Of a stretch of 64,000 nucleotides of DNA, positions 6,427-59,581 are shown piece after piece; position 1 is the stretch's first letter, and every line of letters begins with the position of its first letter. The notes beneath the pieces are model-generated. The model saw nothing but the letters and a program-made list of their open reading frames with translations. It was not told the DNA's origin and did not search any database. The position numbers and the translations under genes were made by a program. Source of the DNA: a phage; the sequence record PZ386967.1, one strand, 5' to 3'.

Positions 6427-6516
6427 TTCCGCTTTATTCAATAAAATTTGTTAGTTAAACTGTAGTCCTCTTGTAGTGAACATGAAAGTAAACATTAACC
6501 CAACGGAGAAATCCAG

Positions 6517-6795
6517 ATGAATCGTACTGAATTTGTTGCCCACATTGCTTCGACCCAGAACATCACCAAAGGCGAAGCGGAGAAAGTAGTGGCATCCTTT
6601 ATCAACGGTGTTAAGACTGCAGTTGCTGCAGGCGCATCTGTACAGCTGGTCGGCTTCGGTGCGTTCGAAGTGAAACACCAAGAAGCGCGTGAAGGCCGCA
6701 ACCCTCTGGACGGCCAGACCATTCAGATCGCGGCGAAAAACGTTGTGAAATTCAAAGTGGGCGAAGGTCTGAAGAACGCTGCCAACGGCAAGTAA
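6517..6795 (+). CDS. HU/IHF-family histone-like DNA-binding protein
   Basis: 92 aa; MNRTEFVAHIA, GFGAFEV, REGRNP, KFKVGEGLK are typical HU signatures. Confidence 0.85.
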   Translation: MNRTEFVAHIASTQNITKGEAEKVVASFINGVKTAVAAGASVQLVGFGAFEVKHQEAREGRNPLDGQTIQIAAKNVVKFKVGEGLKNAANGK

Positions 6796-6842
6796 TTCTA
6801 TCTGACGCGCGGCCAGGCTCTGCAATACAGGGCATGGCAAAG

Positions 6843-6876
6843 AGAAAGCCGGAGCATTGTACTCCGGCTTTTTCGT
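6843..6876 (+). terminator. Rho-independent terminator after HU gene
   Basis: AAGCCGGAG-cattgtact-CCGGCTTTTT; coordinates approximate. Confidence 0.5.
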
Positions 6877-6923
6877 TCTTGGGGATCGGGTAAACTATAG
6901 GCGAATCCCATAGGAGGAAGAAA

Positions 6924-8642
6924 GTGACAGCATTCAACCAATATACCAAGGCGCTTGACGGCGTCGGACCAGTCAGCATAGACCGCATCAAGTCTCTTGC
7001 CACTGAGTTCTTCCCGTATGACACCGCCAACCCCGGCCAGATGGAATGCATCGTTGAAGCCATTGATGCCCTTGTGAATAAGAAATTCAAACACGTGATC
7101 ATCGAGGCTCCGACTGGTGTAGGTAAATCCCTCATCGGCACTACCATCCATAATGTGCTTCGCCATTTGGTTCTTGAGCACAACCCGTATGGTCAGTTCC
7201 GCACGTCTATCACGACGCCGACCAAAGGTTTACAGGATCAGTATGCAGCAGAGAAAGCCGTGGCGATAGACATCCTGAAGGGCAAGAAGAACTACCGTTG
7301 CCACATCAGTCCCGACCTATACTACAACGCCATTCAGTGCCGTATGGCATGCCGTGATGGCCACTGTAGTAAGAATCGTTGCCCATATGTTCAGGCGCGT
7401 CGACAGTGGACCGACGTCTCCTCCCTGCGCTGCACCAACGCCGCCATGATGGTGGAGATGTGTACGACGATTTGTATGAAGCCGGAAAACCGTGCCGATA
7501 TGCTGATCCTTGACGAGTGTCATAAGATGCCCTCTACGCTCCTAGAGCATACTATCATGGAATACAACATAAAGGCTGTGGAAGGGTTGCTTACGATCCC
7601 CGAGGGAGTGCCTATCGTGGAGACCATCAAGGATATCATCATCCGCACAGAGAACTATGAATTGGGCAAGCTGTATTCCCTGTCTGGTGAGATGCATGCG
7701 ATATTTGATGAACTACACGGCAAGGTTGAAGCCCTGTTGGAAACTCTTGAAGAACTGGTAGAGGATGAGCGCCTGACTGAAGCCCAGGTGATGAAGCTGT
7801 CTGATATTATTGATAATCTTCACAACCTCAGTGACTACTGCGGTATCATGGGGCAGACCAACGCCAGCACTTTCATCGTACAGGAGAAGGACAAGGGTAT
7901 GATTCAGTTCAAGCCTGTCATCGCCTCTGATGTATCCCAGTTCGGTCTGTTCCGCAAGGGTGACTACCACGTTCACATGTCGGCGACCATCTGCGGGATT
8001 GACTCGTACGCCCGGTCACTGGGTATCCGCGAGGGTGAGTACCACAAGATACAGATCGGCAACCCTATCCCGATTGAGAACCGGAAAGTCAACTACATGC
8101 CCATCATGAAGATGACAGCGAACATGGGTGACTACGAGATGAAGAAGCTGGCTGAATACGTGGATGAAATTATCGCGTTCCACCCTGGGCAGTCTGGCAT
8201 CATTCACACAGTCAGTTATGACCGCGCCCTGGCTCTACAAAAGTTCAGTAAGTACCGGAATATGATTCACGTTCCTCGTACTCGTAAGGCTCTGATGGAC
8301 ATCATGGAAAACGCGTTCAGGACGAAGACGCCTTGTGTCATCGCCAGTCCGGCCATGGAAGAGGGGTATGACTTCAAAGGCGATTATAGTCGATTTCAGA
8401 TCTTGATCAAGGTGCCATACGATTACCTTGGTGATCCTCTGGTGGCCCACGTCAACAGTGTGGACCCATCGGCGTACTTCAGGATGGCGGTACTGCGTAT
8501 CGTTCAGATGTGTGGGCGTTCGGTCAGGGGTGTGAATGACTGGGCTGCGACGTACATCCTTGATTCTTCTTTTGAATCACTGATGATGCGCAACCCAGAG
8601 TTCTTCCCCGCTTGGTTCACTGATGCCGTGTTTGAGGTTTAG
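6924..8642 (+). CDS. SF2 DNA helicase, XPD/DinG (Rad3)-like with Cys cluster between Walker A and DECH box
   Basis: GTG start after AGGAGG; APTGVGKS Walker A, Cys-rich CHISPD..CRMACRDGHC..CPY insert, LILDECH box. Confidence 0.65.
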   Translation: MTAFNQYTKALDGVGPVSIDRIKSLATEFFPYDTANPGQMECIVEAIDALVNKKFKHVIIEAPTGVGKSLIGTTIHNVLRHLVLEHNPYGQFRTSITTPTKGLQDQYAAEKAVAIDILKGKKNYRCHISPDLYYNAIQCRMACRDGHCSKNRCPYVQARRQWTDVSSLRCTNAAMMVEMCTTICMKPENRADMLILDECHKMPSTLLEHTIMEYNIKAVEGLLTIPEGVPIVETIKDIIIRTENYELGKLYSLSGEMHAIFDELHGKVEALLETLEELVEDERLTEAQVMKLSDIIDNLHNLSDYCGIMGQTNASTFIVQEKDKGMIQFKPVIASDVSQFGLFRKGDYHVHMSATICGIDSYARSLGIREGEYHKIQIGNPIPIENRKVNYMPIMKMTANMGDYEMKKLAEYVDEIIAFHPGQSGIIHTVSYDRALALQKFSKYRNMIHVPRTRKALMDIMENAFRTKTPCVIASPAMEEGYDFKGDYSRFQILIKVPYDYLGDPLVAHVNSVDPSAYFRMAVLRIVQMCGRSVRGVNDWAATYILDSSFESLMMRNPEFFPAWFTDAVFEV

Positions 8643-9406
8643 TAACCCGCAACGAAGGACAGATGGCACTTGACATTCGGTTCCAACGACGTCACAGAAA
8701 CCGTCATATTGTCCGTATCTTGGCTGAAGTCAATGGTGGCGAGAGGTTTGGTCTGAATATGGTTGTAAACACTGTAGATCAGATCCTCGCCACGATACCC
8801 TACCTTCCCGTCGGTGTCTTGCCAATGACCCAGTGTCTCATCGTAGACATGCACTCTGAACTCGATCATATGGAAGAGTGCCTTGGGGATGTCCTTGAGT
8901 ACGCTGGTGCCAACCACGGGAATCTCTATGCTGGAATCATTGGAGTTCCCTTCATATACCGAAGCCCATGCAAAGGTGGGATCTCCCCCAGCAACAGGGG
9001 TTCGCTTCCAGTATTGGAATTCTGGGTTGCCTGAAGCGTTCTTCTGAAGTAGAATGACCTCACCACCTTTGAAGTTCGAAGTATCGATGTCGCCTCGCTG
9101 AAGTTCATCTGCTGGAGATCCAATAAATTTCCAGCCTTCGCGATCCAGTAAAGACTTATAATAGTCGGTGAACACGTTGCTGTCTTCTGCATCGTTGATG
9201 GCATCTTTGAGACCTTGGCCTGTCACCATCTCGTTGAGCTTCAACCACATGTTCTTGACAGCAGACGCTGCTGCGACTTGTCCAGCAGTCCCACCTGCAG
9301 CATAATCATAGATGATATCTTCTGACTTGATAGCATCATAGATAGAGAGGAGCAATTGCTCAATCTGCGGGGCGGTGAGACTGAAACGATATGCGCGGGG
9401 TGTCAT
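8639..9406 (-). CDS. Hypothetical late protein, possibly virion-associated
   Basis: Start trimmed to MTPRAY with GGAG-type RBS; TATAAATA late-promoter octamer on the minus strand about 35 nt upstream. Confidence 0.5.
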   Translation of the reverse strand: MTPRAYRFSLTAPQIEQLLLSIYDAIKSEDIIYDYAAGGTAGQVAAASAVKNMWLKLNEMVTGQGLKDAINDAEDSNVFTDYYKSLLDREGWKFIGSPADELQRGDIDTSNFKGGEVILLQKNASGNPEFQYWKRTPVAGGDPTFAWASVYEGNSNDSSIEIPVVGTSVLKDIPKALFHMIEFRVHVYDETLGHWQDTDGKVGYRGEDLIYSVYNHIQTKPLATIDFSQDTDNMTVSVTSLEPNVKCHLSFVAGY

Positions 9407-9441
9407 AGTTTCATTCCTCTTTCTATAAAACCAGTTTGGGA

Positions 9442-9449
9442 TATTTATA
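9442..9449 (-). promoter_or_regulatory. T4-type late promoter TATAAATA
   Basis: Exact octamer on the minus strand in the 45 bp gap between divergent genes; coordinates approximate. Confidence 0.45.
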
Positions 9450-9451
9450 TC

Positions 9452-9979
9452 ATGATAGAAATTTATTCTGACGGGGGTTCTAACCCGAAGACCAACCAGG
9501 CCGCAGGCTGGGCATTTGTCATCAGGCCAATAACGGGTATGCAATGGAAGGTGTTCTTCGGCCATCTACCTCCCCCGTCCACTAACAATATCGCCGAGTT
9601 GTTGGGTGTGACCAACGCATTGAAGCTACTGTGGGCATTCTCAGGAAAGGGTGAGCGCAGAATACCAAAGGCAACAATTTGGTCTGACAGCCAATATGCC
9701 ATCAAGAGTGTCACCGAATGGCGAGCGAAGTGGGAGTATCAGGGTTTCCCAGAAAAGAACGTTGAACTCATCAAAGATCTGTTCAGAATCTATGATCTCG
9801 TTTGTTCAATTTGTGATGTTGAACTAAAATGGGTTAAGGGTCATGCGGGGCACGAAGGCAACGAACTTGCCGATGACTGGGCCACAGCAGCCAAAAACGA
9901 CAGCAACTTCCTGATTGAGAATGACAAGATCTCAGTGAAGAAGGTTGTTGGATCTTTTGATGAATTTATCGGTATCTGA
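9452..9979 (+). CDS. rnhA: Ribonuclease HI (bacterial type)
   Basis: IYSDGGS, TNNIAELLG, IWSDSQYAI, WVKGHAGHEGNELADDWA match RNase H1 catalytic motifs. Confidence 0.85.
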   Translation: MIEIYSDGGSNPKTNQAAGWAFVIRPITGMQWKVFFGHLPPPSTNNIAELLGVTNALKLLWAFSGKGERRIPKATIWSDSQYAIKSVTEWRAKWEYQGFPEKNVELIKDLFRIYDLVCSICDVELKWVKGHAGHEGNELADDWATAAKNDSNFLIENDKISVKKVVGSFDEFIGI

Positions 9980-9990
9980 GGGCTTTCATA

Positions 9991-10782
9991 ATGGGAATGA
10001 ACTTCGTGGACAGAGGGGAGAATGTCGTCAAATATTTCACGGACGAAGACAACGAGCGTGTCATTAGTATCCTTCGTGATTGGATCCCCGCCCGCAAGAA
10101 AGCACTTGCTGAGGGCACCAGGCTTCCAAAGATCCCCAACTATGTTGCTCTGCAGGTCCAGCGCATCATCACCAAGATGAGTACCCGCTACAACTATCGC
10201 GACTATCCCTTCCGTGAAGACATGGTCTCTGAAGCAATAGTCAACATCCTGCGCTACCTCCACACCTTTGACGTCGAACACATTGGAAAGAAAGGGAAGA
10301 TCAACTTCTTCTCTTGGGTGACCATGTGCGCTGATCGATCATTCGCTCGTAAACTGAATATCGAAGAAGAACACACGTACATCAAATTGCGCTCATTTGA
10401 AGAGGCGGGTGGGTTCGCAGGCCTGGCAGACGATCCCGACTTCCAACAAGAGATCTTTGTTGACGCGACAGGGATTGGTATGGACTTCCGTGAGCGTATC
10501 GGTAACTTTGAGAACAAAAAGGACGCTCAAAGGCAGAAGGAGCGAGAGAAGGTGGAGGCGGCTCGTCTCGCAGAATCGAATAAAAAGATTGCGAAAGGCA
10601 TACTTCAATACATGGCGCAGGCTAAGAATACGGTAACAGCGCAGGCCGAAGACAATTCAGATCAGGACTTTGGCAAAACCCAATTCAATCTGGAAGATGA
10701 TATCTGTGCGATGGAACCAGATTGGGAAGCCCTCAAACAAAGATTAGAAGAACGGGAGAAAAAGAATAATGGCGATTGCTAA
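9991..10782 (+). CDS. 55: Late-transcription sigma factor, gp55-like
   Basis: Central region resembles T4 gp55 from memory; lies immediately upstream of gp47/gp46. Confidence 0.5.
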   Translation: MGMNFVDRGENVVKYFTDEDNERVISILRDWIPARKKALAEGTRLPKIPNYVALQVQRIITKMSTRYNYRDYPFREDMVSEAIVNILRYLHTFDVEHIGKKGKINFFSWVTMCADRSFARKLNIEEEHTYIKLRSFEEAGGFAGLADDPDFQQEIFVDATGIGMDFRERIGNFENKKDAQRQKEREKVEAARLAESNKKIAKGILQYMAQAKNTVTAQAEDNSDQDFGKTQFNLEDDICAMEPDWEALKQRLEEREKKNNGDC

Positions 10783-11884
10783 AATCGGCGATCTGCATAT
10801 CGGGAGCCGTAATGGTTCCCGATACGTTCGCGACTTCATCAAGAACTACCTCATCAATTATTTCATCCCTGAACTTGTCGCCTCCGACATCCATGAGGTC
10901 TGGCAGTTTGGTGACACATTTGACGTCCGCAAATTCATGTACGGGCGTGACAAGGACTGGTTGAAAGATGAGCTGACTCCGGCGCTGAAAGCTGCTGGGA
11001 TCAAGTGGAATGGTATTGTTGGCAACCACGACATCACCCTGGAAGAGTCTAACCGCATCAACTGGCCATCCTACCTGAACGAACTCGACCCAGATGTATA
11101 CTGCTATTATAGCGAACCGACCGAAGTGATGATCGAGGGTGTCAAGACTCTGCTCCTACCGTGGATCAACAAGGAGAACTATGATGCGTCTATTAAGGCG
11201 TTACAAGATACAGACGCCGAGTACTGTTTTGCGCATCTGGAGTTGGCAGGGTTCAAAATGTACCAGTCCTCTACTTGTGATCACGGTCAGATCGACGTTG
11301 CGTTGCTTTCCAAGTTTACCAGGGTCGACACGGGGCATTTCCATACCCGTTCGATGGAAGGTAACATTCAGTATCTTGGGACTCCGTATCACCTGAACTG
11401 GGAAGACTACAAAGATGGCACCAACCGTGGCTTCTATGTGGACGACATGCGCGGCGGTGAGGTATTCATTCCCAACAGCGAGCACCAGACGTTGTTCCGC
11501 TATGTGGAATATGATTACACCAAGTTGTCCTCAGACGATGAGGGTAACTGGATCGACCCGGAATGGTTGAACACAGGCTTGGGTATTGAAGGGCAAATCG
11601 TTAAGGTTATTGTACAGAATCGCGACAATGCTAAGCATTATGAAAAGTTCTGTGATGCAATGAAGCGATGCAAGTGTATTGACTACAACTTCATCGACCG
11701 GACTATTACCGTAGCGGCTGAGAAGGTTGAGGTCACCGAAGAGATGGTGGCAACCGACGCAGTGGAAGTCCTAAAGAAGGATATCCGCGCCGGGAACAAC
11801 ATCCAGCGCCCTGAAAACGTCTGCAAGCTAGCAGAGCACTTCTACAACGCTGCCCAACAACGCCTGAATACACTGGATGCATAA
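10769..11884 (+). CDS. 47: Mre11/SbcD-like recombination nuclease subunit (gp47)
   Basis: N-terminal GDLHIG and GNHD metallophosphoesterase motifs; adjacent to Rad50-like gene. Confidence 0.85.
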   Translation: MAIAKIGDLHIGSRNGSRYVRDFIKNYLINYFIPELVASDIHEVWQFGDTFDVRKFMYGRDKDWLKDELTPALKAAGIKWNGIVGNHDITLEESNRINWPSYLNELDPDVYCYYSEPTEVMIEGVKTLLLPWINKENYDASIKALQDTDAEYCFAHLELAGFKMYQSSTCDHGQIDVALLSKFTRVDTGHFHTRSMEGNIQYLGTPYHLNWEDYKDGTNRGFYVDDMRGGEVFIPNSEHQTLFRYVEYDYTKLSSDDEGNWIDPEWLNTGLGIEGQIVKVIVQNRDNAKHYEKFCDAMKRCKCIDYNFIDRTITVAAEKVEVTEEMVATDAVEVLKKDIRAGNNIQRPENVCKLAEHFYNAAQQRLNTLDA

Positions 11885-14222
11885 CATGACTCAAAGTACA
11901 GATATCCTGGCCAAATTTGGCAATCTTTTGAAGGAAGCTGACACCCCGGTAGAGGTGGAAGTCCCATTTGAAGTGCGTGATAACGTTACGCACAAACTGA
12001 CTTTCCGCAAAGGTCGCGCCAAGAACTTCCGCTCCATCGGCAATCAGTTCATGGAGATTGATTATCAGCGCAACCCAGCCACCCTTGTCACGTCTGATGA
12101 CAACGGCGCGGGTAAATCCACGATGTTGGTATGGCTGCTGTTCTTCGTACTGTACAACACCACGTACAGTAAGAAGGAGAAGAAGGCAGGCCTGGTTAAC
12201 TCACAAAGCCGCAAGGAATGTGTGGGTGAGGTAGAGTTTGCCTGTCGTGGTAGTGAATGGAAAGTTCGCCGGGGTATCAAGCCCGACTTTGTTGAAGTCT
12301 ACCAGATGGTGGACGGTAAGTGGTTGCAGATCGATAACGAAGCAGCCAAGGCCGACATGAACAAGTACATCGTGAACCTCATCGGTGTAGACCAGAAGAT
12401 GTTTGAGAACTCTCTGGTGCTGGGTAAAGAGAAGTTCATTCCGTTTACGGAGATGTACACTGCCGACCGTCGCGCCATGGTGGAGACAATTTGGGACTTG
12501 GGCTTCTTCAGCCTGATGAACGAAGATGTCAAGGCCGCCATCAAAAAGGCAAATACAACTCTGGACTCCATATCTAACGAATGCGCACTGAAGGTTATTG
12601 ACCACACCAACAAGAAGACGCAGCTTCAGCAGATCGAGCAATCCAACGCTCTGATCCAACAGCAGTCGGCCGATATCCTTGTACAGCAACAGGAAGCCCT
12701 GAATTCCCTGGATGCTGACATCGCTTCCCAGAACGAAGAGCGCAGCCGCCTCACTGCGGTTGAGTTCGAAGCCACCCAGGAAATGAAGACGGTAGAAAAT
12801 CGCCTGAATGATGAATCCATGGTGGAGATCGAGGCTATCAAGAAAGACTTTGATGCCAAGATCCAGGCGGTGAAGGATGCCGCTCAGGAAAAGGCCGATG
12901 ATTATGAGCGCATCGAAGTGTCTACTGCGGAGCATGAACTTCAGGTCTTGCGTGACCGTGCCTTTACAGTGGCCGAAAGCAAGAACACCCTGCTCACCGA
13001 GCGCAACACAAACCTGGACGCCCTGAACGCTGCTATTCAGCGCCGCCAGCAGGGTGAGAACTTCCGCATCAAGTTCCAGACCGAAATGGACGGACATCAG
13101 TCGGCCATCAAGCGCTTCCACGACATGGGGACTTGCCCTACCTGTACCCAACTGGTGTCTGATGACACCAAGGCGCGGATTGAGAGTGAGTACAATCCTC
13201 AGATCCAGGAACTACAGTCGAAGTTAGATCAACTAGACAAAGTTACCGCCGATATCAATGTCCTGATCGATGATCACAAGGCTCAGGATGATAAGTTGGT
13301 TGCTGACATTGCTGTGTTGGACACTGAACTGGATGCAATGCGCAAGCAGGCTGACGAAATCGTTGACAACATCAAGCAGCTGCGCCGTGATATTCAAGGT
13401 TTTCATGATGCTGCCACGATTGAGTGTAATTCACTGAACCGTGAATGTCAACAGAAGATCCTTGACATCCGTAAGGCACTGAACGTTCGTTTTGAAGACA
13501 TCACTGCGTCACTACAACAAACTCGAGAGAATGCCGTCAGCGGGATTAAAGCCGTCGATGATAAGATCGCCGAGCTGAAAGCCCGTCGTGCTCCTCTCGT
13601 GGCGTCTATTGCCGATCTGGAGCGTAAACTGGCTGTACAGCCAACACCTACCACCGACCTGGAGAACTCTATCGCTGCGTTGGAAGGTGAACTGGAGTCT
13701 CTGTATGAACTCCGTGAAGATGCAGATGAGGAACTCCAGGACTTACAGCACCTGCTGTTCTTCTTGAAAGATGACCAGACCAAGGCGCGTATCATCGCCC
13801 TGTATCTGCCATTCCTCAATAGCAAGATCAACGAGTATCTTGAAGCCCTCAACATGTTCTTGGATATCGTTGTTGACGATACCTTTGAGATCACCATGAG
13901 CGCAGCAGGCCGCAAGGGGCAGAGTATCTTCTCCCTGTCTACTGGCCAACGCAGTCGTCTGAACCTGGCTGTGACATTAGCTCTGCGCGATGTGGCTAAC
14001 CTCAAGGCATCGGTGCAATGTAACCTGTTTGTCCTGGATGAAATCCTTGAGAACATGAGCGAGCGCGGGGTGCAGGAATCGGTTGAGATGTTGAAGCATA
14101 AGTTCGGCGGGAACAACCTGTTTGTTATTAGCCAGCGCGAACAGGAGTTCCAAGAATACTTCCAACACAACATTCGCTACGGCCTGCGAAACGGCCTGAC
14201 TGAAGTTATCAAGAAGGATTGA
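11877..14222 (+). CDS. 46: Rad50/SbcC-like recombination ATPase subunit (gp46)
   Basis: Walker A GAGKST, long coiled-coil, zinc hook CPTC, C-terminal ABC signature region. Confidence 0.85.
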   Translation: MHNMTQSTDILAKFGNLLKEADTPVEVEVPFEVRDNVTHKLTFRKGRAKNFRSIGNQFMEIDYQRNPATLVTSDDNGAGKSTMLVWLLFFVLYNTTYSKKEKKAGLVNSQSRKECVGEVEFACRGSEWKVRRGIKPDFVEVYQMVDGKWLQIDNEAAKADMNKYIVNLIGVDQKMFENSLVLGKEKFIPFTEMYTADRRAMVETIWDLGFFSLMNEDVKAAIKKANTTLDSISNECALKVIDHTNKKTQLQQIEQSNALIQQQSADILVQQQEALNSLDADIASQNEERSRLTAVEFEATQEMKTVENRLNDESMVEIEAIKKDFDAKIQAVKDAAQEKADDYERIEVSTAEHELQVLRDRAFTVAESKNTLLTERNTNLDALNAAIQRRQQGENFRIKFQTEMDGHQSAIKRFHDMGTCPTCTQLVSDDTKARIESEYNPQIQELQSKLDQLDKVTADINVLIDDHKAQDDKLVADIAVLDTELDAMRKQADEIVDNIKQLRRDIQGFHDAATIECNSLNRECQQKILDIRKALNVRFEDITASLQQTRENAVSGIKAVDDKIAELKARRAPLVASIADLERKLAVQPTPTTDLENSIAALEGELESLYELREDADEELQDLQHLLFFLKDDQTKARIIALYLPFLNSKINEYLEALNMFLDIVVDDTFEITMSAAGRKGQSIFSLSTGQRSRLNLAVTLALRDVANLKASVQCNLFVLDEILENMSERGVQESVEMLKHKFGGNNLFVISQREQEFQEYFQHNIRYGLRNGLTEVIKKD

Positions 14223-14225
14223 TCA

Positions 14226-14387
14226 TGAACTACGAACAAATTAAACTCGCAATACTGATCTTTGCATGCATCATTGACATCGTTGCGTTTTCTCGTGAAG
14301 TCGAAAGGAAAAACTACCTGAAATCACTGGGGTATCTCGGGTTCTCTGTCTGGTTCTGTTATCTACTTGCAGGTCAAATCCTGAAAT
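14226..14387 (+). CDS. Putative 53-aa membrane peptide
   Basis: Short ORF below the track cutoff with hydrophobic core; ATGA overlap with next gene; coordinates by hand. Confidence 0.25.
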
Positions 14388-14715
14388 GAAAGTCGTCCAC
14401 TTCAAGAAGGAGCCATATGACGTCTACATTGGTCGGCCTGGTAAATGGGGGAACCCGTTTGAGGTCAAAGACCATGGACGAGGCGTCTGTATCGAGCTGT
14501 TTGAGGACGACCTGTATGTGCGCCTGGTTGAAGGGGATATCACTGAGGATGAACTCCTTGAGCTTGACGGGAAGGTATTGGGGTGCTGGTGTAAGCCACG
14601 CCCCTGCCACGGGGATGTTTACGTCAAAGTCATTGGTCGTATTAAACTATTCCGCAAGCTGGGTAAATCCTTTACTGAACACCTGAGACAAACATATGTC
14701 AGAATCAAAAGATGA
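14386..14715 (+). CDS. DUF4326-like protein
   Basis: Motifs GNPF and CWCKPRPCHGDV. Confidence 0.45.
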   Translation: MKVVHFKKEPYDVYIGRPGKWGNPFEVKDHGRGVCIELFEDDLYVRLVEGDITEDELLELDGKVLGCWCKPRPCHGDVYVKVIGRIKLFRKLGKSFTEHLRQTYVRIKR

Positions 14716-14980
14716 AATCCAAGACTCCTGTGACATTGCAGTTGAAACCTGGAACCGTCGGAACCCGCATTACCAGGTGACTGTCACTCCGAATCGTTAT
14801 CTTGAGCAGGGCGGCCTGATTGTGGTTGATGCTGTACTCGCTTTCAACAAGTACCAAGATATGCAGATCCTGGACGGCAACTTTACCGTCGCGACCAAGA
14901 CGGCATGGGATGACCCTCTACAGTTCGTCTACGGCTGGCTGGAGTGTATCGAGGAATCCTACCACCTCATCTACGAATGA
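14696..14980 (+). CDS. Hypothetical protein
   Basis: ORF overlapping end of upstream gene. Confidence 0.4.
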   Translation: MSESKDEIQDSCDIAVETWNRRNPHYQVTVTPNRYLEQGGLIVVDAVLAFNKYQDMQILDGNFTVATKTAWDDPLQFVYGWLECIEESYHLIYE

Positions 14981-15077
14981 GGCTGAAGGGCACTAAATAT
15001 CACGTGCCCTTTATCTTTTAACCCCTGTCAGGAGGCTCAAGCGAGCTGCAAGTCGACAAAACATAAGGAACGCCATC

Positions 15078-15692
15078 ATGACGATGACAACGTTGAAGGC
15101 CATGGCCTTGTCCGTGACCTTTACCATTGCCAGCGGGAATGTGCACGCTTCCCAAAGTACCACCCAATGTGATTATAATTTCTCCGAGCAACAACTCAAT
15201 ACACTGGCAACTGCCTACCATGTAGGCAAGACACAAGACCTTGGTTACACCCTGGCTGCAATATCCTGGCGAGAGAGCCGCGCTGGTGAAGATGTAGTGT
15301 CAATGCGATACGGCCTCAAGGCGGCCAACATGGGAGCCTTTCAGAACAAGGTGAAGACAGTTGGTGATCGCGAAGGTTGTAAGAATCGCAAGTGCTATGC
15401 CAATGTCGCCATAAAGTTGCTGACCGACCAAGAATATGCCGCGCAAGCCGCCCTCGATGAGATGCAGTTCTGGCTGACCTATCACAATCAGAATATCCGC
15501 AAATCCCTCTCCTCTTACAATGCTGGCTTCGCCCGTAATCCTGCATCGAACGCTTATGCTGCCGACGTCGTGAAGAAAGCTAAATATCTTCAGAAATGTG
15601 TGTCTTTCGAAGGCCGGACCATCTCCGAGGTAGATCCTCGGGTGATCGCCATGAACAAGCACACAATAGAGAAACTGAAGAGGACAAGATAA
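15078..15692 (+). CDS. Secreted lytic-transglycosylase-like (SLT domain) protein
   Basis: Signal peptide; AISWRESRAG (E-S catalytic motif) and YNAG motif typical of family 1 lytic transglycosylases. Confidence 0.5.
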   Translation: MTMTTLKAMALSVTFTIASGNVHASQSTTQCDYNFSEQQLNTLATAYHVGKTQDLGYTLAAISWRESRAGEDVVSMRYGLKAANMGAFQNKVKTVGDREGCKNRKCYANVAIKLLTDQEYAAQAALDEMQFWLTYHNQNIRKSLSSYNAGFARNPASNAYAADVVKKAKYLQKCVSFEGRTISEVDPRVIAMNKHTIEKLKRTR

Positions 15693-16330
15693 TGAACATC
15701 ACTCCATCTCAGGCCGGATATGAACATATCTTGGTCTTCATTGCTCTACAGGGTGCGAAGGAAGGCATCATCGTATCCGAGTACTCAGGCACGGTTCGCC
15801 TTGCCGATTATGTCGCACCAGAGGCATTTATCAAGAAGTGTATTGACGCATGGTGTCTCTATGCCCTCAGCACATACCCTGCTCCTCCTGAGGGTGAGCT
15901 GTTGTTTACTGTACCGACTCCGGCTGTTGGGGATACGGATGCCATCTTTGCCGATATGCTGGCGAAGGGGTATCTGGTGTATGACATCACCCACGATGTC
16001 TACTCTTTTACTTCGCTGAACACCGTGTTTGGATTCACCATCACATCTGAAGCCAACATCCCTGACTGGGGTATCTTGGCATGGGGTGTTGACGGCCTGG
16101 GTGCAACCTACGCATCGTCTGACGTCGGTGCAGTTCTGATTGATGAGGGTGTCACCATGGAGCAGTACCTTGCCCAGTTCCCTCAGCACAATATCACAGG
16201 CAGCGACATCATTTTGGTCCAGCCTGGCGCTATCGCTCTCCCCCGTTTGGTGGATGGATGGAATCCTCGGCTGAAGGGCATCATCGCAGGTATTCGATCC
16301 CACATTCCGATTGTGAATCCGACGCCGTAA
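15692..16330 (+). CDS. Hypothetical protein
   Basis: Start trimmed to MNITPSQ; ATGA overlap with upstream gene. Confidence 0.5.
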   Translation: MNITPSQAGYEHILVFIALQGAKEGIIVSEYSGTVRLADYVAPEAFIKKCIDAWCLYALSTYPAPPEGELLFTVPTPAVGDTDAIFADMLAKGYLVYDITHDVYSFTSLNTVFGFTITSEANIPDWGILAWGVDGLGATYASSDVGAVLIDEGVTMEQYLAQFPQHNITGSDIILVQPGAIALPRLVDGWNPRLKGIIAGIRSHIPIVNPTP

Positions 16331-16343
16331 AATAATTCAATAA

Positions 16344-16388
16344 AAGGGGCTTTTGCCCCTTTACTTCTTCAATATCCTTCCCTATACT
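16344..16388 (+). promoter_or_regulatory. Terminator hairpin plus early-type promoter TTTACT-N17-TATACT
   Basis: AGGGGC-tttt-GCCCCT hairpin then TTTACT, 17 nt, TATACT; coordinates approximate. Confidence 0.45.
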
Positions 16389-16436
16389 TCATTCCATAAG
16401 CAACACAACACCAACTTGAAAAGCAGGAACTACACC

Positions 16437-16712
16437 ATGAAAATTATCCTCGACGCATATATCCGCCACGGTCAGAAATACCTGATGGCCAAGGTTTACG
16501 ACGGCGAAGAATTGATCCACGCCCAGACCGCCCCAGCTGCCCAGCTGCGAGAAATCATGTCACGCGACTTCCCTGGTGTTGAAATGGTAGAGCCTACCAA
16601 CCAGGCCGAAGTAGACAAAGAGTGGGAGCGCGAATGGAGTCCAGCGGCTATCGCTCGGGCTGAAAAGAATTGGTCTAACCGCGAAAACGCAAACCGCCCT
16701 TTCCGCCGTTAA
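16437..16712 (+). CDS. Hypothetical protein
   Basis: Start trimmed to MKIILD after CAGGAACTACACC leader. Confidence 0.5.
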   Translation: MKIILDAYIRHGQKYLMAKVYDGEELIHAQTAPAAQLREIMSRDFPGVEMVEPTNQAEVDKEWEREWSPAAIARAEKNWSNRENANRPFRR

Positions 16713-16734
16713 TTTGAACCGAAGGAACTATATC

Positions 16735-17070
16735 ATGACACAACTCAAGAACTTCACCGCCGATGACATGTTTGCCTTCCAGGGTGCTGAGCACTTTGCT
16801 GACGGCTCCGTACCTCGCATCTACTACTTCTCCGACGAAGAAATGGAAGATTTCTTCGCCCTGATGGAAAAGGACTACGAACCAGACGACTTCGTTTATA
16901 TCATCCATCACGCCGAAGGACTGACATTGGGCTGGACGGCCAACAATGAACCAGAAGAAGTAAACTTCCCTGAAGGTATCATGTCAGAGCGCGTCGAATA
17001 TCTACTGGAAGCCCTGGACCCCCACACCCTCCCGCTCTGGGCGATGTCTGTAGCCCAAGTTCAAAAATAA
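16735..17070 (+). CDS. Hypothetical acidic protein
   Basis: Start trimmed to MTQLK after AAGGAACTATATC leader. Confidence 0.5.
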   Translation: MTQLKNFTADDMFAFQGAEHFADGSVPRIYYFSDEEMEDFFALMEKDYEPDDFVYIIHHAEGLTLGWTANNEPEEVNFPEGIMSERVEYLLEALDPHTLPLWAMSVAQVQK

Positions 17071-17145
17071 GATAAGGGGGCTGACGCTCCCTTTTGGTTT
17101 CGCTAATTAGAAGAAACCGCCGTTAATTCAATCAGGAGATATAAA

Positions 17146-20130
17146 ATGTCAAAGCCAAGTTTCCTCCAGTTCATGCAGGAAAGAGATCAGTTGGACGAAG
17201 CGTTCAACTCCGCTCCGTATGAGCTGACCATGGGTAAGAAGAACGCAGGCGATGTGTTCTTCACCTTCGTCGACGAAGATGATAAGGAATACCGCATTCA
17301 GTTCTATACTCCTCAGGGACTGGGCAAGAGCGTTCGTCAGGTTTTCATCGGCCAGAAGCGCGGCTCCGTCTATCCTGACGCCATCGCTCGCTTCAAGAAC
17401 CCAATGCGCGTTATTGCTTCCATGATCGAAGCGACCAAACAATTCATGGCGACTCCTCTGGGCAAAACTATCGATGGCTATGCTGTCAACTTCTCGAAGA
17501 AAGCGCTGGATCGCGGTATGACCCTGATTCCTAAGATCATCCGCCAGTCCGGTCTGAAGCAGAAACTGAATGTCATGGACCTGACCTACGCGCCTGTCCC
17601 TGACCGTGGTTATGTGTGGCTAGTTCGTAAGGGCAAAGATCCGGCTCAGGTATTCGACGGTCCGAAGATGCAGGGTATCACCTGGGATGATCCAGACAAG
17701 GTCGGTGACGTTCCGGTTCAGAACAATACTCCGGATGTGGGTGTGTCATCTTCTGTTGATAATTCCAACGGATGGAAATTAACTTCAAACGGGGATCAGC
17801 CCATGTTGATATGGGCTGGTAAGGAGAGAGGCCGCACGAATACGGCAAATATCGCTCCCCACTACAATGAGCCGGGCGTGTATGTTGGCGCATACATGAA
17901 TGAGAAACCTGTGCGTGGGCAAAGTGCTGATTTCATTGCTCGTCAGTTGAAATTACCACAAGTCCCTATCAGTATCCTGAATGATTTCACCACGGCGTCC
18001 ACAAAATTTTGGAAAGGTTCTCAACAGAAATCTGCGCCTGTTGTGCCGGCAGGTTCGGACAGAAATAACCCAGCCAACATTATCGGTTCTGGAACTGCTG
18101 TTATTGATGCCAAACGGCTTGGTGCTCAGGAAGTAAACGTGGAACGATTCAAAAACGGCGTTCGCATGCGTTCTCGAAACGGTGACGTCGACATCAGTAT
18201 TTCTGACCCAGACTTTTCAAATGCAGCAAGTGCGGCTGATGCTGCCACAGCCTCTGTTGTGGTCAAGAACGGGCGTTACGAAGGTGCCATCAATTCAAAG
18301 CGCAAGATTGCCCGCACCTCGAACGAGCAGGGTACTGAATGGGATATCATCGGTGTCAACGGGGAAACCCTTGTCTCTATCAAGTTGAACAAAGTGTCTA
18401 AATCCACATCAGATTCGACCGAGGGTGCAACCAGTGTTGATCAATTACGTGACAGCGGTTTCATCGCTCGTGTTCTGGGTATCATTGATACCAACGTTGG
18501 GCTGGACACTTCTATTCTTCCTGGTGAAAACATCCGTCGCGTGGGCGCTGGTCGTTACACGACGGCAGGCGGGTTGGTTATCGTTGTCAACTTCACAAAC
18601 GTCCTCGCTGGTTTCGTTCAATACTCAGTTTTCAGCGAAATTGCTGAAGAGGAGAACGTGGCCAAAGGTAGCGCCCGTGACGTCGCCAAGGCGGTAATTG
18701 CGTCCATCTTTGAGGTTGCTAAGACCCAGTACACTGGCAAATGGGAAATTAGCGCAGTGCCAACAAGCGCTCCATATCCTATCAAAGCCATTCGCCGTTC
18801 TCGGGGCTGGGGTTATGTGGAAACCGCAAACTGGACTCTGACAGTGTCCGACGCTGTCCTGAATCGTGTGAAGCCAGGGAACACTGCTCTACTGGAACTC
18901 ATCAAAGAACCTCCGCGTGGCAAGCACCCGCTGGAAATCATCCCAGAGAAGGGCGACAAGACCCTGATGCTGAAAGATCGTATCACCGGGGCCATCTATG
19001 GTTCTATCGACCTGAATGCCCAAGGCGCTGATCTGGTCAACTCTGGAACCCTGAAGATACCAAGCAACGCCATGGTGTTTGGTGAGACTGTCAACGGTAT
19101 GTCCATTCGGTGGGATGTCAATTTCCCCGAAACGGGAAAATACGCCGGTACTTCTATGATAACCAACGTGACCTATTACTACGACAAAGGTAAAGTTGCA
19201 TTCACCCCAATTGTCTCTCAGAAAGGGCGTACCCTGAACAATCCGAAGACATATGAACTTCCTTTAAACAAAGATATGGTCCAGAGTGTGATTGATGAGA
19301 TTTCATCAAAAATGGTATATCTTTCCAGAAACCTCCAACAGTTGAAAAGTCAGTCATACAACCCAAACCAGGTGTTCTTGAACGATATAACCATCACGGA
19401 TAAAGGTGAAGTGATTTGGAATGATTACAACTTGTCTGACGGCAAAGTTACACAAATTATGCTGTCCATGATAAGCGCAGAAAATAAACGCCTGGAGAAA
19501 GTAGCAAACACGCCGGATATCAATATCACATTGCCCAAGAAACAAGCTGAAGTGGTAGAATTTATAAACCGGATGATCGATGTCGATCTCACCCCTTATG
19601 TGAGAACCCCCAAAAAACGTGATGTGGTATTATTTGACTCTTCTGAATTGTCGATAAACCAACTCAACAACATAGAACGCCTGGGAAGAGAAACAGGAAA
19701 ATGGTCTCTTCAGCCAAACGGTGGTATGGGTCATGCACTACTTCTGAAAAGCACGTCGCACAATCCGAAGGACGACCTTGCGGCATACGCCGACTCCATT
19801 CGCGACAACGCACCAAAAGGTCGCGACCTGGATTGGCAGATCTATGCAAGCCGTGATGGTCAGACTCTGAACGTGGACTGGGATATCACCTTCCGCCGCA
19901 ACACAACTGAAGGGGCATATCGCGAGTTCAAAGCTCAGATTGACCGCGCCAACCAGTACCTGCAGACACTGTACCGGGATGCGAAGTCCAAGGGTTACAA
20001 CCCGACTGAACCAAACCTGATGACTCTGGATAGCGCCCAGCAGTCTGACCAGTGGGCACGAGACTACGGGGAAGGCGCATACAGCGAGTACGAGCAGTCC
20101 CTGGGTGGCAACATGCAGATTAAGATCTGA
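17146..20130 (+). CDS. Large hypothetical protein (994 aa)
   Basis: Long uninterrupted ORF; no recognisable catalytic motif. Confidence 0.6.
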   Translation: MSKPSFLQFMQERDQLDEAFNSAPYELTMGKKNAGDVFFTFVDEDDKEYRIQFYTPQGLGKSVRQVFIGQKRGSVYPDAIARFKNPMRVIASMIEATKQFMATPLGKTIDGYAVNFSKKALDRGMTLIPKIIRQSGLKQKLNVMDLTYAPVPDRGYVWLVRKGKDPAQVFDGPKMQGITWDDPDKVGDVPVQNNTPDVGVSSSVDNSNGWKLTSNGDQPMLIWAGKERGRTNTANIAPHYNEPGVYVGAYMNEKPVRGQSADFIARQLKLPQVPISILNDFTTASTKFWKGSQQKSAPVVPAGSDRNNPANIIGSGTAVIDAKRLGAQEVNVERFKNGVRMRSRNGDVDISISDPDFSNAASAADAATASVVVKNGRYEGAINSKRKIARTSNEQGTEWDIIGVNGETLVSIKLNKVSKSTSDSTEGATSVDQLRDSGFIARVLGIIDTNVGLDTSILPGENIRRVGAGRYTTAGGLVIVVNFTNVLAGFVQYSVFSEIAEEENVAKGSARDVAKAVIASIFEVAKTQYTGKWEISAVPTSAPYPIKAIRRSRGWGYVETANWTLTVSDAVLNRVKPGNTALLELIKEPPRGKHPLEIIPEKGDKTLMLKDRITGAIYGSIDLNAQGADLVNSGTLKIPSNAMVFGETVNGMSIRWDVNFPETGKYAGTSMITNVTYYYDKGKVAFTPIVSQKGRTLNNPKTYELPLNKDMVQSVIDEISSKMVYLSRNLQQLKSQSYNPNQVFLNDITITDKGEVIWNDYNLSDGKVTQIMLSMISAENKRLEKVANTPDINITLPKKQAEVVEFINRMIDVDLTPYVRTPKKRDVVLFDSSELSINQLNNIERLGRETGKWSLQPNGGMGHALLLKSTSHNPKDDLAAYADSIRDNAPKGRDLDWQIYASRDGQTLNVDWDITFRRNTTEGAYREFKAQIDRANQYLQTLYRDAKSKGYNPTEPNLMTLDSAQQSDQWARDYGEGAYSEYEQSLGGNMQIKI

Positions 20131-20154: not shown

Positions 20155-20162
20155 TATAAATA
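20155..20162 (+). promoter_or_regulatory. T4-type late promoter TATAAATA
   Basis: Exact octamer about 25 nt upstream of ATG at 20188, after a hairpin terminator; coordinates approximate. Confidence 0.45.
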
Positions 20163-20187
20163 ACTGAAATCCCCGAGGAGAGATCCA

Positions 20188-20493
20188 ATGAAACCTTTTA
20201 TCGAATATTTTAAAGAACAAGCCGCTCAACCCCAGACCCATGCTGGTGTCCAGGGTAAGACCGTATCCATCACCAAGCAAGCTGACGGCACCCAGTGGTG
20301 TTCCGGCGCTACCGTGACCCAGATTACCCCTGACAATCAGGCGGATGTATATAACCTGGAGTTAACCAACGGCAACACTATCAAGGTGAAGCTGACCCCA
20401 GACCAGACTCACGGTATCTCCCAAGGTCAGGAAGTCGTTGCTGTTCATGACGGCTTCGAATTCTTCTTTGGCAAGTCTATCGACAAAGACTAA
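20188..20493 (+). CDS. Hypothetical late protein
   Basis: ORF with GAGGAG RBS downstream of the TATAAATA element. Confidence 0.5.
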   Translation: MKPFIEYFKEQAAQPQTHAGVQGKTVSITKQADGTQWCSGATVTQITPDNQADVYNLELTNGNTIKVKLTPDQTHGISQGQEVVAVHDGFEFFFGKSIDKD

Positions 20494-20578: not shown

Positions 20579-20932
20579 ATGGTCAATGCGAGTATTTTCA
20601 TCAACCGTGGACTGCTTGCTATAGCCCACTCTCATGCCTTGCACTTCGTTACAACATCCTATGCCAAGCACAAGGCACTCGGGGAGTTCTACGGGGAATT
20701 GGAGGGCTTGCTGGACACGTTTACCGAAGCATACATCGGTGCGGGTGGTCAGTATGTTCCATCATTCGAGAATATCAAATTGTACAACCCAGACCCTATC
20801 TCCTATATTAACAGTGTGGTGATAGACGTCGATGGCATCTACAAGCAGTGTGACTCCCACCTTCAGAGCACTCTTGACGATATCAAGACACTGTGCTACC
20901 AGACGATCTACAAACTGAAGCAGCTGTCGTAA
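20579..20932 (+). CDS. Hypothetical protein
   Basis: Start trimmed to MVNASIF. Confidence 0.4.
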   Translation: MVNASIFINRGLLAIAHSHALHFVTTSYAKHKALGEFYGELEGLLDTFTEAYIGAGGQYVPSFENIKLYNPDPISYINSVVIDVDGIYKQCDSHLQSTLDDIKTLCYQTIYKLKQLS

Positions 20933-35666: not shown

Positions 35667-35898
35667 TTATCAATGCAAGGGCTGTGGTAACGCGATGACA
35701 CTGCGTAAATCTATTGCAGATCGCCATGAGCCTGAATCCAACCCTTGCACTGAGTGCGGAGGGGAGATTAAAATGATCGTGGGTGCTCCCAAGATTGTCT
35801 CTGGGGTGAAGGGACCACAATCAGCTCCAGACGGCTTCAAGGACGTCTTGCGTACGATAAAGAAGGGTTCGGGTAAGGGGAACACAATCGATGTCTGA
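35653..35898 (+). CDS. FmdB-family zinc-ribbon protein
   Basis: MPLYDYQCKGCG ... CTECGG matches the FmdB regulatory zinc-ribbon signature. Confidence 0.5.
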   Translation: MPLYDYQCKGCGNAMTLRKSIADRHEPESNPCTECGGEIKMIVGAPKIVSGVKGPQSAPDGFKDVLRTIKKGSGKGNTIDV

Positions 35899-36136
35899 CG
35901 AAAAACAGCCAGCGCTTGTGATGACACCAGAATTATTTTCTGAAATCGTCCTACTACGCGCCGCCCAAACCAAGGATAGTATCCTTGAGACTCTGGCAGC
36001 TGTCTGTGAAGAGAACGACATAGACGAGACCAAAGTCAAAAAGATGATTACAGCACCATTGTTGTCACGACTGACAGCTGAGTGCTCCGATGCGCGCCTG
36101 ATCAAAGACGCGCTAAAGTCTAAGAAATTAGTGTAG
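35891..36136 (+). CDS. Hypothetical protein
   Basis: ORF overlapping upstream stop. Confidence 0.4.
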   Translation: MSDEKQPALVMTPELFSEIVLLRAAQTKDSILETLAAVCEENDIDETKVKKMITAPLLSRLTAECSDARLIKDALKSKKLV

Positions 36137-38464: not shown

Positions 38465-38498
38465 GGTGAGGACTCCACTTAAATAAAATAACTGTTAT

Positions 38499-38506
38499 TA
38501 TTTATA
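38499..38506 (-). promoter_or_regulatory. T4-type late promoter TATAAATA
   Basis: Plus strand reads TATTTATA upstream of minus gene start at 38464; coordinates approximate. Confidence 0.45.
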
Positions 38507-38517
38507 GGAGTTGACAA

Positions 38518-59531: not shown

Positions 59532-59581
59532 GGTCTCAGCCCTTAAATAGATAGAGTGTTATGGCTATTTAGGACTAGATT
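59532..59581. promoter_or_regulatory. Divergent late promoter region with TAAATAG inverted repeat
   Basis: 50 bp gap containing TAAATAG ... CTATTTA, close to the TATAAATA late-promoter octamer on each strand. Confidence 0.4.

What the first reader, a model, noticed from the sequence alone, without database searches (positions are those of the whole stretch)
8639..9451. Isolated late gene embedded among early genes, with exact TATAAATA promoter
The minus-strand gene 8639-9406 sits between + strand helicase and RNase H genes. Its 45-bp upstream gap carries an exact T4-type late promoter octamer on the minus strand about 35 nt from the ATG. A lone late gene here suggests a virion-packaged or late-acting accessory protein.
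Basis: seen in the sequence. Interest (0 to 1): 0.4.

Follow-up and report, generated by a model that had tools for sequence, protein, structure and literature searches.

The report
Late-promoter gene for gp9-like baseplate protein
This is a real gene of a Vi1-like (Ackermannviridae) phage with its own T4-type late promoter; its product is already known to be in the virus particle, and it appears to be a diverged copy of T4's tail-fibre socket protein gp9, which a 2024 review of this phage family lists as missing.

Summary
A 255-aa minus-strand gene (8639-9406) lies between the + strand helicase and RNase H genes. An exact TATAAATA (9442-9449, minus) sits in the 45-bp gap, 35 nt before the ATG. 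The window is an Agtrevirus phage, 98% identical to Salmonella phage vB_CECAV_050.

The octamer belongs to a clear promoter class. Only 18 TAAATA hexamers occur in 64 kb, and 8 lie 30-36 nt upstream of a ribosome site plus start codon (P about 1e-12), including the gp5, gp2, gp4 and gp48/54-like genes. The motif and gene order are conserved across Ackermannviridae genera.

The GenBank record of Dickeya phage LIMEstone1 (2012) marks a "putative late promoter" there. It calls the 92%-identical ortholog ORF093 a "confirmed structural protein" (8 peptides, 41% coverage in virions).

It is therefore most likely a gp9-like peripheral baseplate adaptor, although a 2024 review says the family lacks gp9-gp11. 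Interest is modest.

The parts
8639..9406 (-). Coding sequence of the 255-aa virion protein (PHROG 3833; ortholog of LIMEstone1 ORF093)
   Evidence: ORF and start codon. Full-length match to phrog_3833, E 5e-160. Orthologs in 357 phage records. The LIMEstone1 ortholog was detected in virions by mass spectrometry.
9442..9449 (-). T4-type late promoter octamer TATAAATA
   Evidence: Exact match. Conserved in five further genera. Member of the TAAATA class placed 30-36 nt before start codons, P 1e-12. Annotated as 'putative late promoter' in LIMEstone1.
9414..9420 (-). Ribosome binding site AGAGGAA, with GAGG 9 nt before the ATG
   Evidence: Read directly from the sequence. The same GAGGAA element is kept in the relatives.
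9131..9406 (-). Codons 1-92: N-terminal helical region. It includes a unit (residues 62-90, GLKDAINDAEDSNVFTDYYKSLL) shared with repeats of long tail-fibre proteins.
   Evidence: Helices 12-24, 47-61, 63-72 and 81-90 in the model. Profile positions 62-90 match 4-9 repeated stretches in long proteins such as P0085.
8648..8944 (-). Codons 155-253: C-terminal eight-stranded beta domain, homologous to the C-terminal domain of T4 gp9 (Pfam T4_gp9_10_C)
   Evidence: Family profile against PDB sequences: T4 gp9 residues 174-280, E 8.5e-6, the only significant hit. hhalign probability 76%, E 2.2e-5. Eight strands between residues 158 and 254, pLDDT 91-97 over residues 161-250 and 88 for the last six. 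PF23618 is weakly hit by 5 of 58 family members.
9452..9979 (+). RNase H gene. Its ATG lies 3 nt from the late promoter octamer on the other strand.
   Evidence: Pfam RNase_H, E 4.6e-25. Coordinates.
6924..8642 (+). Helicase gene, convergent with the late gene. The two reading frames overlap by 4 nt at their stop codons.
   Evidence: Pfam Helicase_C_2, ResIII and DEAD. Overlap read. No intrinsic terminator predicted in 6500-10200.
9991..10782 (+). gp55-like late sigma factor, which in T4 recognises TATAAATA promoters
   Evidence: phrog_234 'late sigma transcription factor', E 3.4e-52.
35891..36136 (+). gp33-like late transcription co-activator
   Evidence: phrog_254 'late promoter transcriptional regulator', E 2.8e-20.

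Best explanation
The gene is a late-transcribed structural gene of an Agtrevirus (Ackermannviridae) phage. Late in infection, host RNA polymerase carrying the phage gp55-like sigma factor and gp33-like co-activator recognises the TATAAATA element at 9442-9449. It starts a short-leader mRNA about 6 nt downstream (start point inferred from T4) and makes a monocistronic message for the 255-aa protein.

The protein is built into the virion (shown for the 92%-identical LIMEstone1 ortholog). It is a diverged homolog of T4 gp9, the trimeric 'socket' protein at the rim of the baseplate. It has an N-terminal helical, anchor-like part and a C-terminal eight-stranded jelly-roll domain of the gp9/gp10 C-terminal type.

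[quoted passage not shown] In this family the most likely partner is the trimeric anchor domain of tailspike TSP4, which carries the branched tailspike complex.

Shown here or in the literature: the gene, the promoter motif and its class, conservation, virion presence of the ortholog, and fold and profile similarity to gp9. Inferred: late timing, trimer state, baseplate position and binding partner.
For: Promoter. The octamer is exact, lies 35 nt from the ATG, and is conserved across genera. It belongs to a position-specific class, with 8 of 18 TAAATA sites at 30-36 nt before starts, P 1e-12. That class includes known late genes: gp5-like, gp2 DNA end protector, gp4 head closure, and the gp48/54-like tail tube cap genes. 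gp55-like and gp33-like genes are in the window. T4 gene 9 itself has its own annotated late promoter 24 nt before its ATG.

Virion presence. LIMEstone1 ORF093 gave 8 peptides and 40.78% coverage. [quoted passage not shown]

gp9 relationship.
- The AlphaFold2 model built on 58 sequences has pLDDT 87.5.
- The Foldseek top PDB hit is 1qex_A, T4 gp9, E 5.7e-7, aligned over the full length.
- In BFVD, after the family's own uncharacterized Vibrio-phage relatives (the top ranks), the named matches include gp9-type proteins of Aeromonas phages 65 and phiAS4 and Vibrio phage nt-1.
- The family profile matches T4 gp9 residues 174-280, E 8.5e-6, as the only significant PDB sequence hit.
- hhalign gives probability 76%.
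- Pfam T4_gp9_10_C is the only family hit by more than two members.

Context. In Vibrio phage Kuja the homolog is co-oriented with, and directly upstream of, a gp6-like wedge gene (phrog_219), a second gene with weak baseplate-wedge matches (its best match is to 'head closure Hc2'), and a tail fibre gene. A few GenBank records already name the ortholog 'baseplate wedge protein' or 'baseplate wedge tail fiber protein connector'.
Against: Sequence similarity to gp9 covers only the C-terminal domain, about 100 residues, and is modest (28 bits; hhalign 76%). The query alone hits no Pfam family, no gp9 PHROG and no PDB sequence.

Global superposition on gp9 is poor (TM 0.35, rmsd about 21 A). This is expected for a flexible multi-domain monomer model, but it is not proof of a shared architecture. 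The region between the helices and the C-terminal domain has fewer strands in the model than the seven-stranded middle domain described for gp9 (from memory).

Ackermannviridae have no long tail fibres, so the defining gp9 function cannot be the same. A 2024 review states that the family lacks gp9-gp11. TSP4 itself already carries a gp9/gp10-like XD1 domain.

There is no transcript data for late timing. There is no direct localisation within the virion.
Confidence: 0.68

Rival explanations
1. The protein is a virion component located elsewhere (head, neck or sheath surface). It would be a small free-standing fibre or decoration protein whose C-terminal beta-sandwich binds a host surface ligand, and the gp9 resemblance would reflect only a shared jelly-roll module.
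Against: The best hits by three independent methods are gp9 itself and not generic sandwiches. In Kuja the gene lies next to baseplate wedge genes. The 'head and packaging' label is only the generic PHROG category for 'virion structural protein'.
Confidence: 0.17
2. The TATAAATA is a chance or non-functional match. The gene would be expressed from another signal, for example an early or middle promoter further upstream, and would not be specifically late.
For: No transcript data exist for this family. In Det7 the octamer has one mismatch, TATAAGTA. The AG3 paper found that only 3 of 17 one-mismatch TATAAATA sites preceded genes postulated to be late.
Against: Expected exact matches are 0.5 per window. 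The position-specific enrichment has P 1e-12. The motif is conserved across genera. Upstream on the minus strand is the antisense of the RNase H, gp55 and gp47 genes, and the 45-bp gap holds no sigma-70-like site; the scan of 6500-10200 found no more sites than chance. The product is a virion protein.
Confidence: 0.05
3. The true product is the longer 308-aa ORF starting at 9565, as annotated for Shigella phage ChubbyThor. The TATAAATA would then lie inside the coding sequence.
For: An in-frame ATG exists at 9565. ChubbyThor (308 aa) and K5lambda5 (279 aa) carry longer annotations.
Against: The extension overlaps the RNase H gene on the other strand. Homologs down to 33% identity all begin at the 9406-equivalent methionine. 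A strong ribosome site precedes 9406. The LIMEstone1 protein mass is listed as 28.32 kDa, which fits 255 aa.
Confidence: 0.03
4. The protein is not truly structural. It would be an abundant late non-structural protein, for example an assembly factor, that co-purifies with virions.
For: The same LIMEstone1 dataset also detected rIIB, DNA ligase, PhoH and gp44.
Against: Those contaminants had 1 peptide and under 5% coverage. ORF093 had 8 peptides and 41% coverage, comparable to the neck, portal and tailspike proteins in that table. A ViI counterpart is also reported as structural. The fold is that of a baseplate component.
Confidence: 0.04

Closest known systems
LIMEstone1 ORF093 (CCD57654), 'unknown structural protein', with its annotated 'putative late promoter' (Adriaenssens et al. 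2012, PMC3296691; GenBank HE600015)
   Same: It is the ortholog, 91.8% identical, with the same length. It has the same position between the helicase and RNase H genes, an identical 75-nt upstream region including TATAAATA, and was detected in virions.
   Different: Nothing of substance differs. That record gives no function, and the gp9 relationship was not noted there.
Bacteriophage T4 gp9 (baseplate wedge tail fibre connector; PDB 1QEX/1S2E; Pfam T4_gp9_10_C)
   Same: Similar size (255 against 288 aa). Both have a helical N-terminus followed by beta domains, and the C-terminal eight-stranded jelly roll shows detectable sequence homology. gp9 is the top structural hit. Both are virion proteins, and each gene has its own TATAAATA late promoter directly upstream.
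   Different: Only the C-terminal domain matches at sequence level, at about 15% identity. The N-terminal part carries tail-fibre-repeat-like helices and the middle region is reduced. The gene lies among replication genes and not in a 6-7-8-9-10 cluster. The phage has no long tail fibres, so the partner must differ. Trimer state and baseplate position are untested.
T4 gp10 and the gp10-like XD domains of Ackermannviridae tailspikes TSP2 and TSP4 (Plattner 2019; Chao 2022, PMC8825819)
   Different: gp10 and TSP4 are much larger branching proteins, and no XD2 or XD3 domain was identified in this protein. TSP4-N resembles the N-terminal and middle parts of gp9, whereas this protein matches the gp9 C-terminal domain.
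T4 late promoters (TATAAATA, gp55/gp33/gp45-dependent)
   Same: The octamer is exact, there is no -35 element, and the leader is short. gp55-like and gp33-like genes are present. The same motif class precedes other late genes of this phage.
   Different: In this phage only the TAAATA core is constant, with CATAAATA, CTTAAATA and CCTAAATA variants. The spacing to the start codon is unusually uniform at 31-35 nt. Function has not been tested.

Membership tests
T4-type late promoter | TATAAATA element (extended -10) on the coding strand just upstream of the gene | tested here: met
   Exact octamer at 9442-9449 on the minus strand, 35 nt before the ATG.
T4-type late promoter | The phage encodes the late sigma factor gp55 and the co-activator gp33 (and the sliding clamp gp45) | tested here: met
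   gp55-like gene at 9991-10782 (phrog_234). gp33-like gene at 35891-36136 (phrog_254). I did not look for gp45 in the window; AG3 is reported to encode it (PMC3121705).
T4-type late promoter | The motif recurs non-randomly in front of known late (structural) genes | tested here: met
   8 of 18 TAAATA sites lie 30-36 nt before starts, including the gp5, gp2, gp4 and gp48/54-like genes; P 1e-12.
T4-type late promoter | Transcription starts a few nt downstream, late in infection, and depends on gp55 and DNA replication | not testable with these tools
   No transcriptome of any Ackermannviridae phage was found.
T4 gp9 (baseplate wedge tail fibre connector; Pfam T4_gp9_10_C) | Sequence homology to gp9 | tested here: inconclusive
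   The family profile hits the T4 gp9 C-terminal domain at E 8.5e-6, and hhalign gives 76%. PF23618 is hit weakly by 5 of 58 members. The query alone hits neither a gp9 PHROG, nor Pfam, nor any PDB sequence. The N-terminal two thirds are not matched at sequence level.
T4 gp9 (baseplate wedge tail fibre connector; Pfam T4_gp9_10_C) | Fold: N-terminal helical domain, middle beta domain, C-terminal eight-stranded jelly roll | tested here: met
T4 gp9 (baseplate wedge tail fibre connector; Pfam T4_gp9_10_C) | Homotrimer | not tested
   Only a monomer could be predicted with the tools available.
T4 gp9 (baseplate wedge tail fibre connector; Pfam T4_gp9_10_C) | Component of the virion, located at the baseplate periphery bound to gp7 | tested here: inconclusive
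   Virion presence is shown for the LIMEstone1 ortholog. Position in the particle is unknown. In Kuja the gene adjoins a gp6-like wedge gene and a second gene with weak baseplate-wedge matches.
T4 gp9 (baseplate wedge tail fibre connector; Pfam T4_gp9_10_C) | Binds the proximal long tail fibre (gp34) and transmits the contraction signal | not testable with these tools
   Ackermannviridae carry tailspike complexes and not long tail fibres (PMC11721090). An equivalent partner, the TSP4 anchor domain, is only inferred.

The most novel reading that the evidence does not exclude
Contrary to the current view that Ackermannviridae lack the gp9-gp11 baseplate periphery, this conserved 255-aa protein is the family's gp9 equivalent. 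Its trimeric C-terminal socket would be the so far unidentified baseplate docking site for the triple-beta-helix anchor domain of TSP4. The whole branched tailspike complex would then hang on, and signal sheath contraction through, a gp9-like swivel, as T4's long tail fibres do.
Probability: 0.3. Interest if true: 0.55.

Novelty: new member of a known kind. Interest (0 to 1): 0.3.

Why it matters

The added value is the family assignment. Ackermannviridae are widely used for biocontrol and host-range engineering because of their branched tailspike complex, yet what that complex docks onto in the baseplate is not known. A 2024 review states that gp9-gp11 are absent.

A conserved, virion-borne gp9-like protein encoded away from the tail gene cluster is a concrete candidate for that docking site. 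It would also be a candidate for the link between receptor binding and sheath contraction. This can be tested directly with multimer modelling, pull-downs or cryo-EM.

The tight TAAATA-to-start spacing also gives a simple rule for annotating late genes in this family.

Tried and rejected
- Direct sequence searches with the single protein gave nothing useful. There was no Pfam family, only 'unknown function' PHROGs, and no credible PDB sequence hit; the beta-lactamase match at E 0.5 is noise.
- The single-sequence AlphaFold2 model was unusable (pLDDT 44) and was not used for fold searches.
- Three word-indexed homolog searches returned only 42 proteins, and the third added none. Diversity for the alignment came from the exhaustive profile search.
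- Pfam scans of the long repeat proteins that share the N-terminal motif gave only sub-threshold, inconsistent hits. I therefore do not name a family for that motif.
- I found no cryo-EM study of an Ackermannviridae virion and no paper combining Ackermannviridae with RNA-seq and late genes (one search returned only unrelated papers), so I cannot cite direct localisation or timing.
- The phiD3 proteome paper did not help. The Sajous1 proteome paper could not be mapped to this gene from its main text.
- Relaxing the octamer to one mismatch does not show enrichment: 15 sites found against 24 expected. The informative unit is the TAAATA core plus its position, not octamer similarity.
- A sigma-70 promoter or intrinsic terminator for this gene was considered and rejected. 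There are no terminators in 6500-10200, and promoter-like sites are no more frequent than chance.
Full report
**What the window is.** The stretch 6900-11900 is 98.4% identical to Salmonella phage vB_CECAV_050 (Ackermannviridae, Agtrevirus). It is 94-97% identical to other Agtrevirus phages such as Shigella phage Ag3. Most genes in this part of the genome are replication, recombination and nucleotide-metabolism genes on the + strand. Small groups of structural genes are interspersed, many on the minus strand.

**Checking the observation.** The sequence shows a minus-strand ORF from ATG 9406 to stop 8639 (255 aa). AGAGGAA lies at 9414-9420, and TATAAATA lies at 9442-9449 on the minus strand, with 35 nt between the octamer and the ATG.
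- The helicase gene (6924-8642, +) ends 4 nt inside the 3' end of the ORF.
- The RNase H gene starts at 9452 on the + strand, so the gap is 45 bp.
- A longer 308-aa reading from ATG 9565 exists, but it overlaps RNase H. It is not supported by the N-termini of homologs or by the ribosome site.

**Is the octamer more than chance?**
- There are three exact octamers in 64 kb, against 0.5 expected.
- The other minus-strand copy (38499-38506) is 34 nt before the start of a gp48/54-like 'tail tube' gene (phrog_3629).
- The + strand copy (20155-20162) is 25 nt before a small ORF.
- One-mismatch variants are not enriched: 15 found against 24 expected.
- The core TAAATA is rare, at 18 copies on both strands. 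Eight of these lie 30-36 nt upstream of a ribosome site plus start codon of an ORF of at least 100 aa. The background expectation is 0.84% of positions, giving a binomial P of 1e-12. For the other 14 permutations of the hexamer, 14 of 314 sites qualify, several because they overlap the same promoters.
- The eight include the genes for gp5-like hub/lysozyme (CATAAATA), gp2-like DNA end protector (CTTAAATA), gp4-like head closure (CTTAAATA), baseplate tail tube cap (CCTAAATA) and the gp48/54-like protein.
- The window also encodes the gp55-like late sigma factor, two genes downstream of the finding, and a gp33-like co-activator.
- The upstream region is identical in LIMEstone1. The octamer is kept in Klebsiella phage FKP10, Erwinia phage Bue1 and Serratia phage 2050H1. 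Det7 has TATAAGTA and Vibrio phage SD25 has TCTAAATA at the equivalent place.
- The order helicase / this gene on the opposite strand / RNase H / gp55 / gp47 is kept in all of these genera, and in a metagenomic contig carrying a 38%-identical homolog.

**Already known.** The LIMEstone1 GenBank record marks a 'putative late promoter' directly upstream of ORF093. It labels ORF093 'unknown structural protein; confirmed structural protein'. ORF093 is 91.8% identical to the window protein.
- In the paper it is listed at 28.32 kDa, with 40.78% coverage and 8 unique peptides from purified virions (PMC3296691 Table 2).
- The AG3 paper likewise searched for TATAAATA and found late promoters before the gp2, gp5 and gp6 genes (PMC3121705).

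'Isolated' overstates the case, because scattered late genes with their own promoters are normal for this genome.

**What the protein is.** The single sequence gave no family beyond PHROG 3833, 'unknown function'. An exhaustive profile search found 95 relatives. About 50 are full-length proteins of 245-260 aa. The rest are long proteins in which profile positions 62-90 (GLKDAINxAxDSNVFTDxxKxxL) match 4-9 repeated stretches. One of them, P0085, looks to me like a tail-fibre-type repeat protein.

With a 58-sequence alignment, AlphaFold2 gave a confident model (pLDDT 87.5). It has helices up to residue 90, a small mixed region, and an eight-stranded beta domain between residues 158 and 254. The evidence linking it to gp9 is as follows.
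- Among solved structures the best Foldseek hit is T4 gp9 (1qex_A, E 5.7e-7, aligned over the full length).
- In the viral model library, the family's own uncharacterized Vibrio-phage relatives rank first. Below them the named matches include 'Gp9plus10' of Aeromonas phage 65, a baseplate wedge subunit of phiAS4 and the gp9 of Vibrio phage nt-1.
- The family profile has T4 gp9 (residues 174-280) as its only significant match among all PDB sequences, at E 8.5e-6.
- hhalign against T4 gp9 gives 76% probability for the same region.
- Pfam T4_gp9_10_C is the only family weakly hit by more than two members.
- In Vibrio phage Kuja the homolog has a different location. It is co-oriented with and directly upstream of a gp6-like wedge gene, a second gene with weak baseplate-wedge matches (its best PHROG match is 'head closure Hc2'), and a tail fibre gene.
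- T4 gene 9 also has its own annotated late promoter, 24 nt before its ATG.

**Limits of that assignment.**
- Sequence homology covers only the C-terminal domain and is modest.
- Global superposition is poor (TM 0.35).
- The region between the helices and the C-terminal domain has fewer strands than the seven-stranded middle domain described for gp9 (from memory).
- The N-terminal part carries a fibre-repeat-like motif not reported for gp9.
- Trimer state and location in the virion were not tested.

[quoted passage not shown] Ackermannviridae have no long tail fibres. They carry a branched tailspike complex anchored through the N-terminal triple-beta-helix 'anchor domain' of TSP4, whose baseplate partner is not identified (PMC8825819 and PMC11414711). 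A 2024 review states that the family lacks gp9-gp11 (PMC11721090). The literature I could search links gp9 in this family only to the XD1 domain of TSP4, although a few GenBank records already name the ortholog 'baseplate wedge protein' or 'baseplate wedge tail fiber protein connector'.

I therefore propose that the protein is a gp9-like peripheral baseplate adaptor, anchored by its N-terminal part, with the C-terminal jelly roll offering a trimeric socket. The TSP4 anchor is the most likely ligand. The partner and the geometry are inference.

**Transcription layout.** The late transcript has no room for an intergenic terminator, and none is predicted in 6500-10200. It probably reads antisense into the helicase gene. 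Conversely, + strand transcription towards RNase H, gp55 and gp47 must either start inside, or read through, the antisense of this gene. This resembles T4-type genome organisation (from general knowledge) and was not tested.

**Verdict.**
- The added result is a probable gp9-type identity for a conserved virion protein in a family described as lacking gp9.
- I rate this a new member of a known kind, of modest interest (0.3).
- It would matter more if the protein proves to be the docking site of the tailspike complex.

Noticed in passing
window 38465-38517: This 53-bp divergent gap holds two back-to-back late-promoter-like elements. TATAAATA (38499-38506, minus) lies 34 nt before the gp48/54-like tail gene. 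CTTAAATA (core 38480-38485, plus) lies 32 nt before the gp2-like DNA end protector gene. The two elements lie 13 nt apart on opposite strands.
   Followed up: partly
window 59532-59581: A second divergent late-promoter pair sits in a 50-bp gap. CCTAAATA (core 59566-59571, minus) lies 34 nt before the baseplate tail tube cap gene. CTTAAATA (core 59544-59549, plus) lies 32 nt before the gp4-like head closure gene.
   Followed up: partly
whole window: TAAATA is rare, with 18 copies on both strands, and most of the other permutations of the hexamer are commoner. One-mismatch variants of TATAAATA are fewer than in shuffles, 15 against 24. This suggests selection against stray late promoters.
   Followed up: partly
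window 20155-20493: An exact TATAAATA (20155-20162, plus) lies 25 nt before a 101-aa ORF. That ORF matches only the first 100 of 189 positions of phrog_4048, and the ortholog in vB_CECAV_050 is 189 aa. The gene therefore looks truncated by a deletion in this phage. The next gene (20579-20932, annotated as a starvation-inducible regulator) also has a CTTAAATA 31 nt upstream.
   Followed up: partly
window 8639-8642: The helicase gene and the late gene converge, and their reading frames overlap by 4 nt at the stop codons. No intrinsic terminator is predicted on either strand in 6500-10200. Each transcript would therefore run antisense into the other gene.
   Followed up: partly
L011 (Vibrio phage Kuja) 3836-8579: In Kuja the homolog is not between the helicase and RNase H genes. 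It heads a co-oriented block with a gp6-like wedge gene, a second gene with weak baseplate-wedge matches, and a tail fibre gene. It lies next to clamp loader genes on the other strand, and no TAAATA is visible in the 136 nt read upstream of its start.
   Followed up: partly
window 9137-9223 (protein residues 62-90); P0085, P0088, P0095, P0119: The motif GLKDAINxAxDSNVFTDxxKxxL of the N-terminal region recurs as a tandem unit of about 30 residues, 4-9 times, in long tail-fibre-type proteins from metagenomes. No Pfam family describes this repeat.
   Followed up: partly
window 14222-20130: According to the LIMEstone1 proteome (ORF78-85), the + strand genes just downstream of the gp46-like gene include several virion proteins of unknown function. 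The 994-aa product of 17146-20130 has a short stretch that matches an internal head protein family (phrog_7673). The finding's neighbourhood is therefore not purely 'early'.
   Followed up: no
Dickeya phage phiDP10.3 (KM209270), ortholog region: The ortholog matches in two pieces and is annotated as two hypothetical proteins. A 165-aa fragment is also present in the viral structure library. This may be a frameshift or a sequencing error in that record.
   Followed up: no
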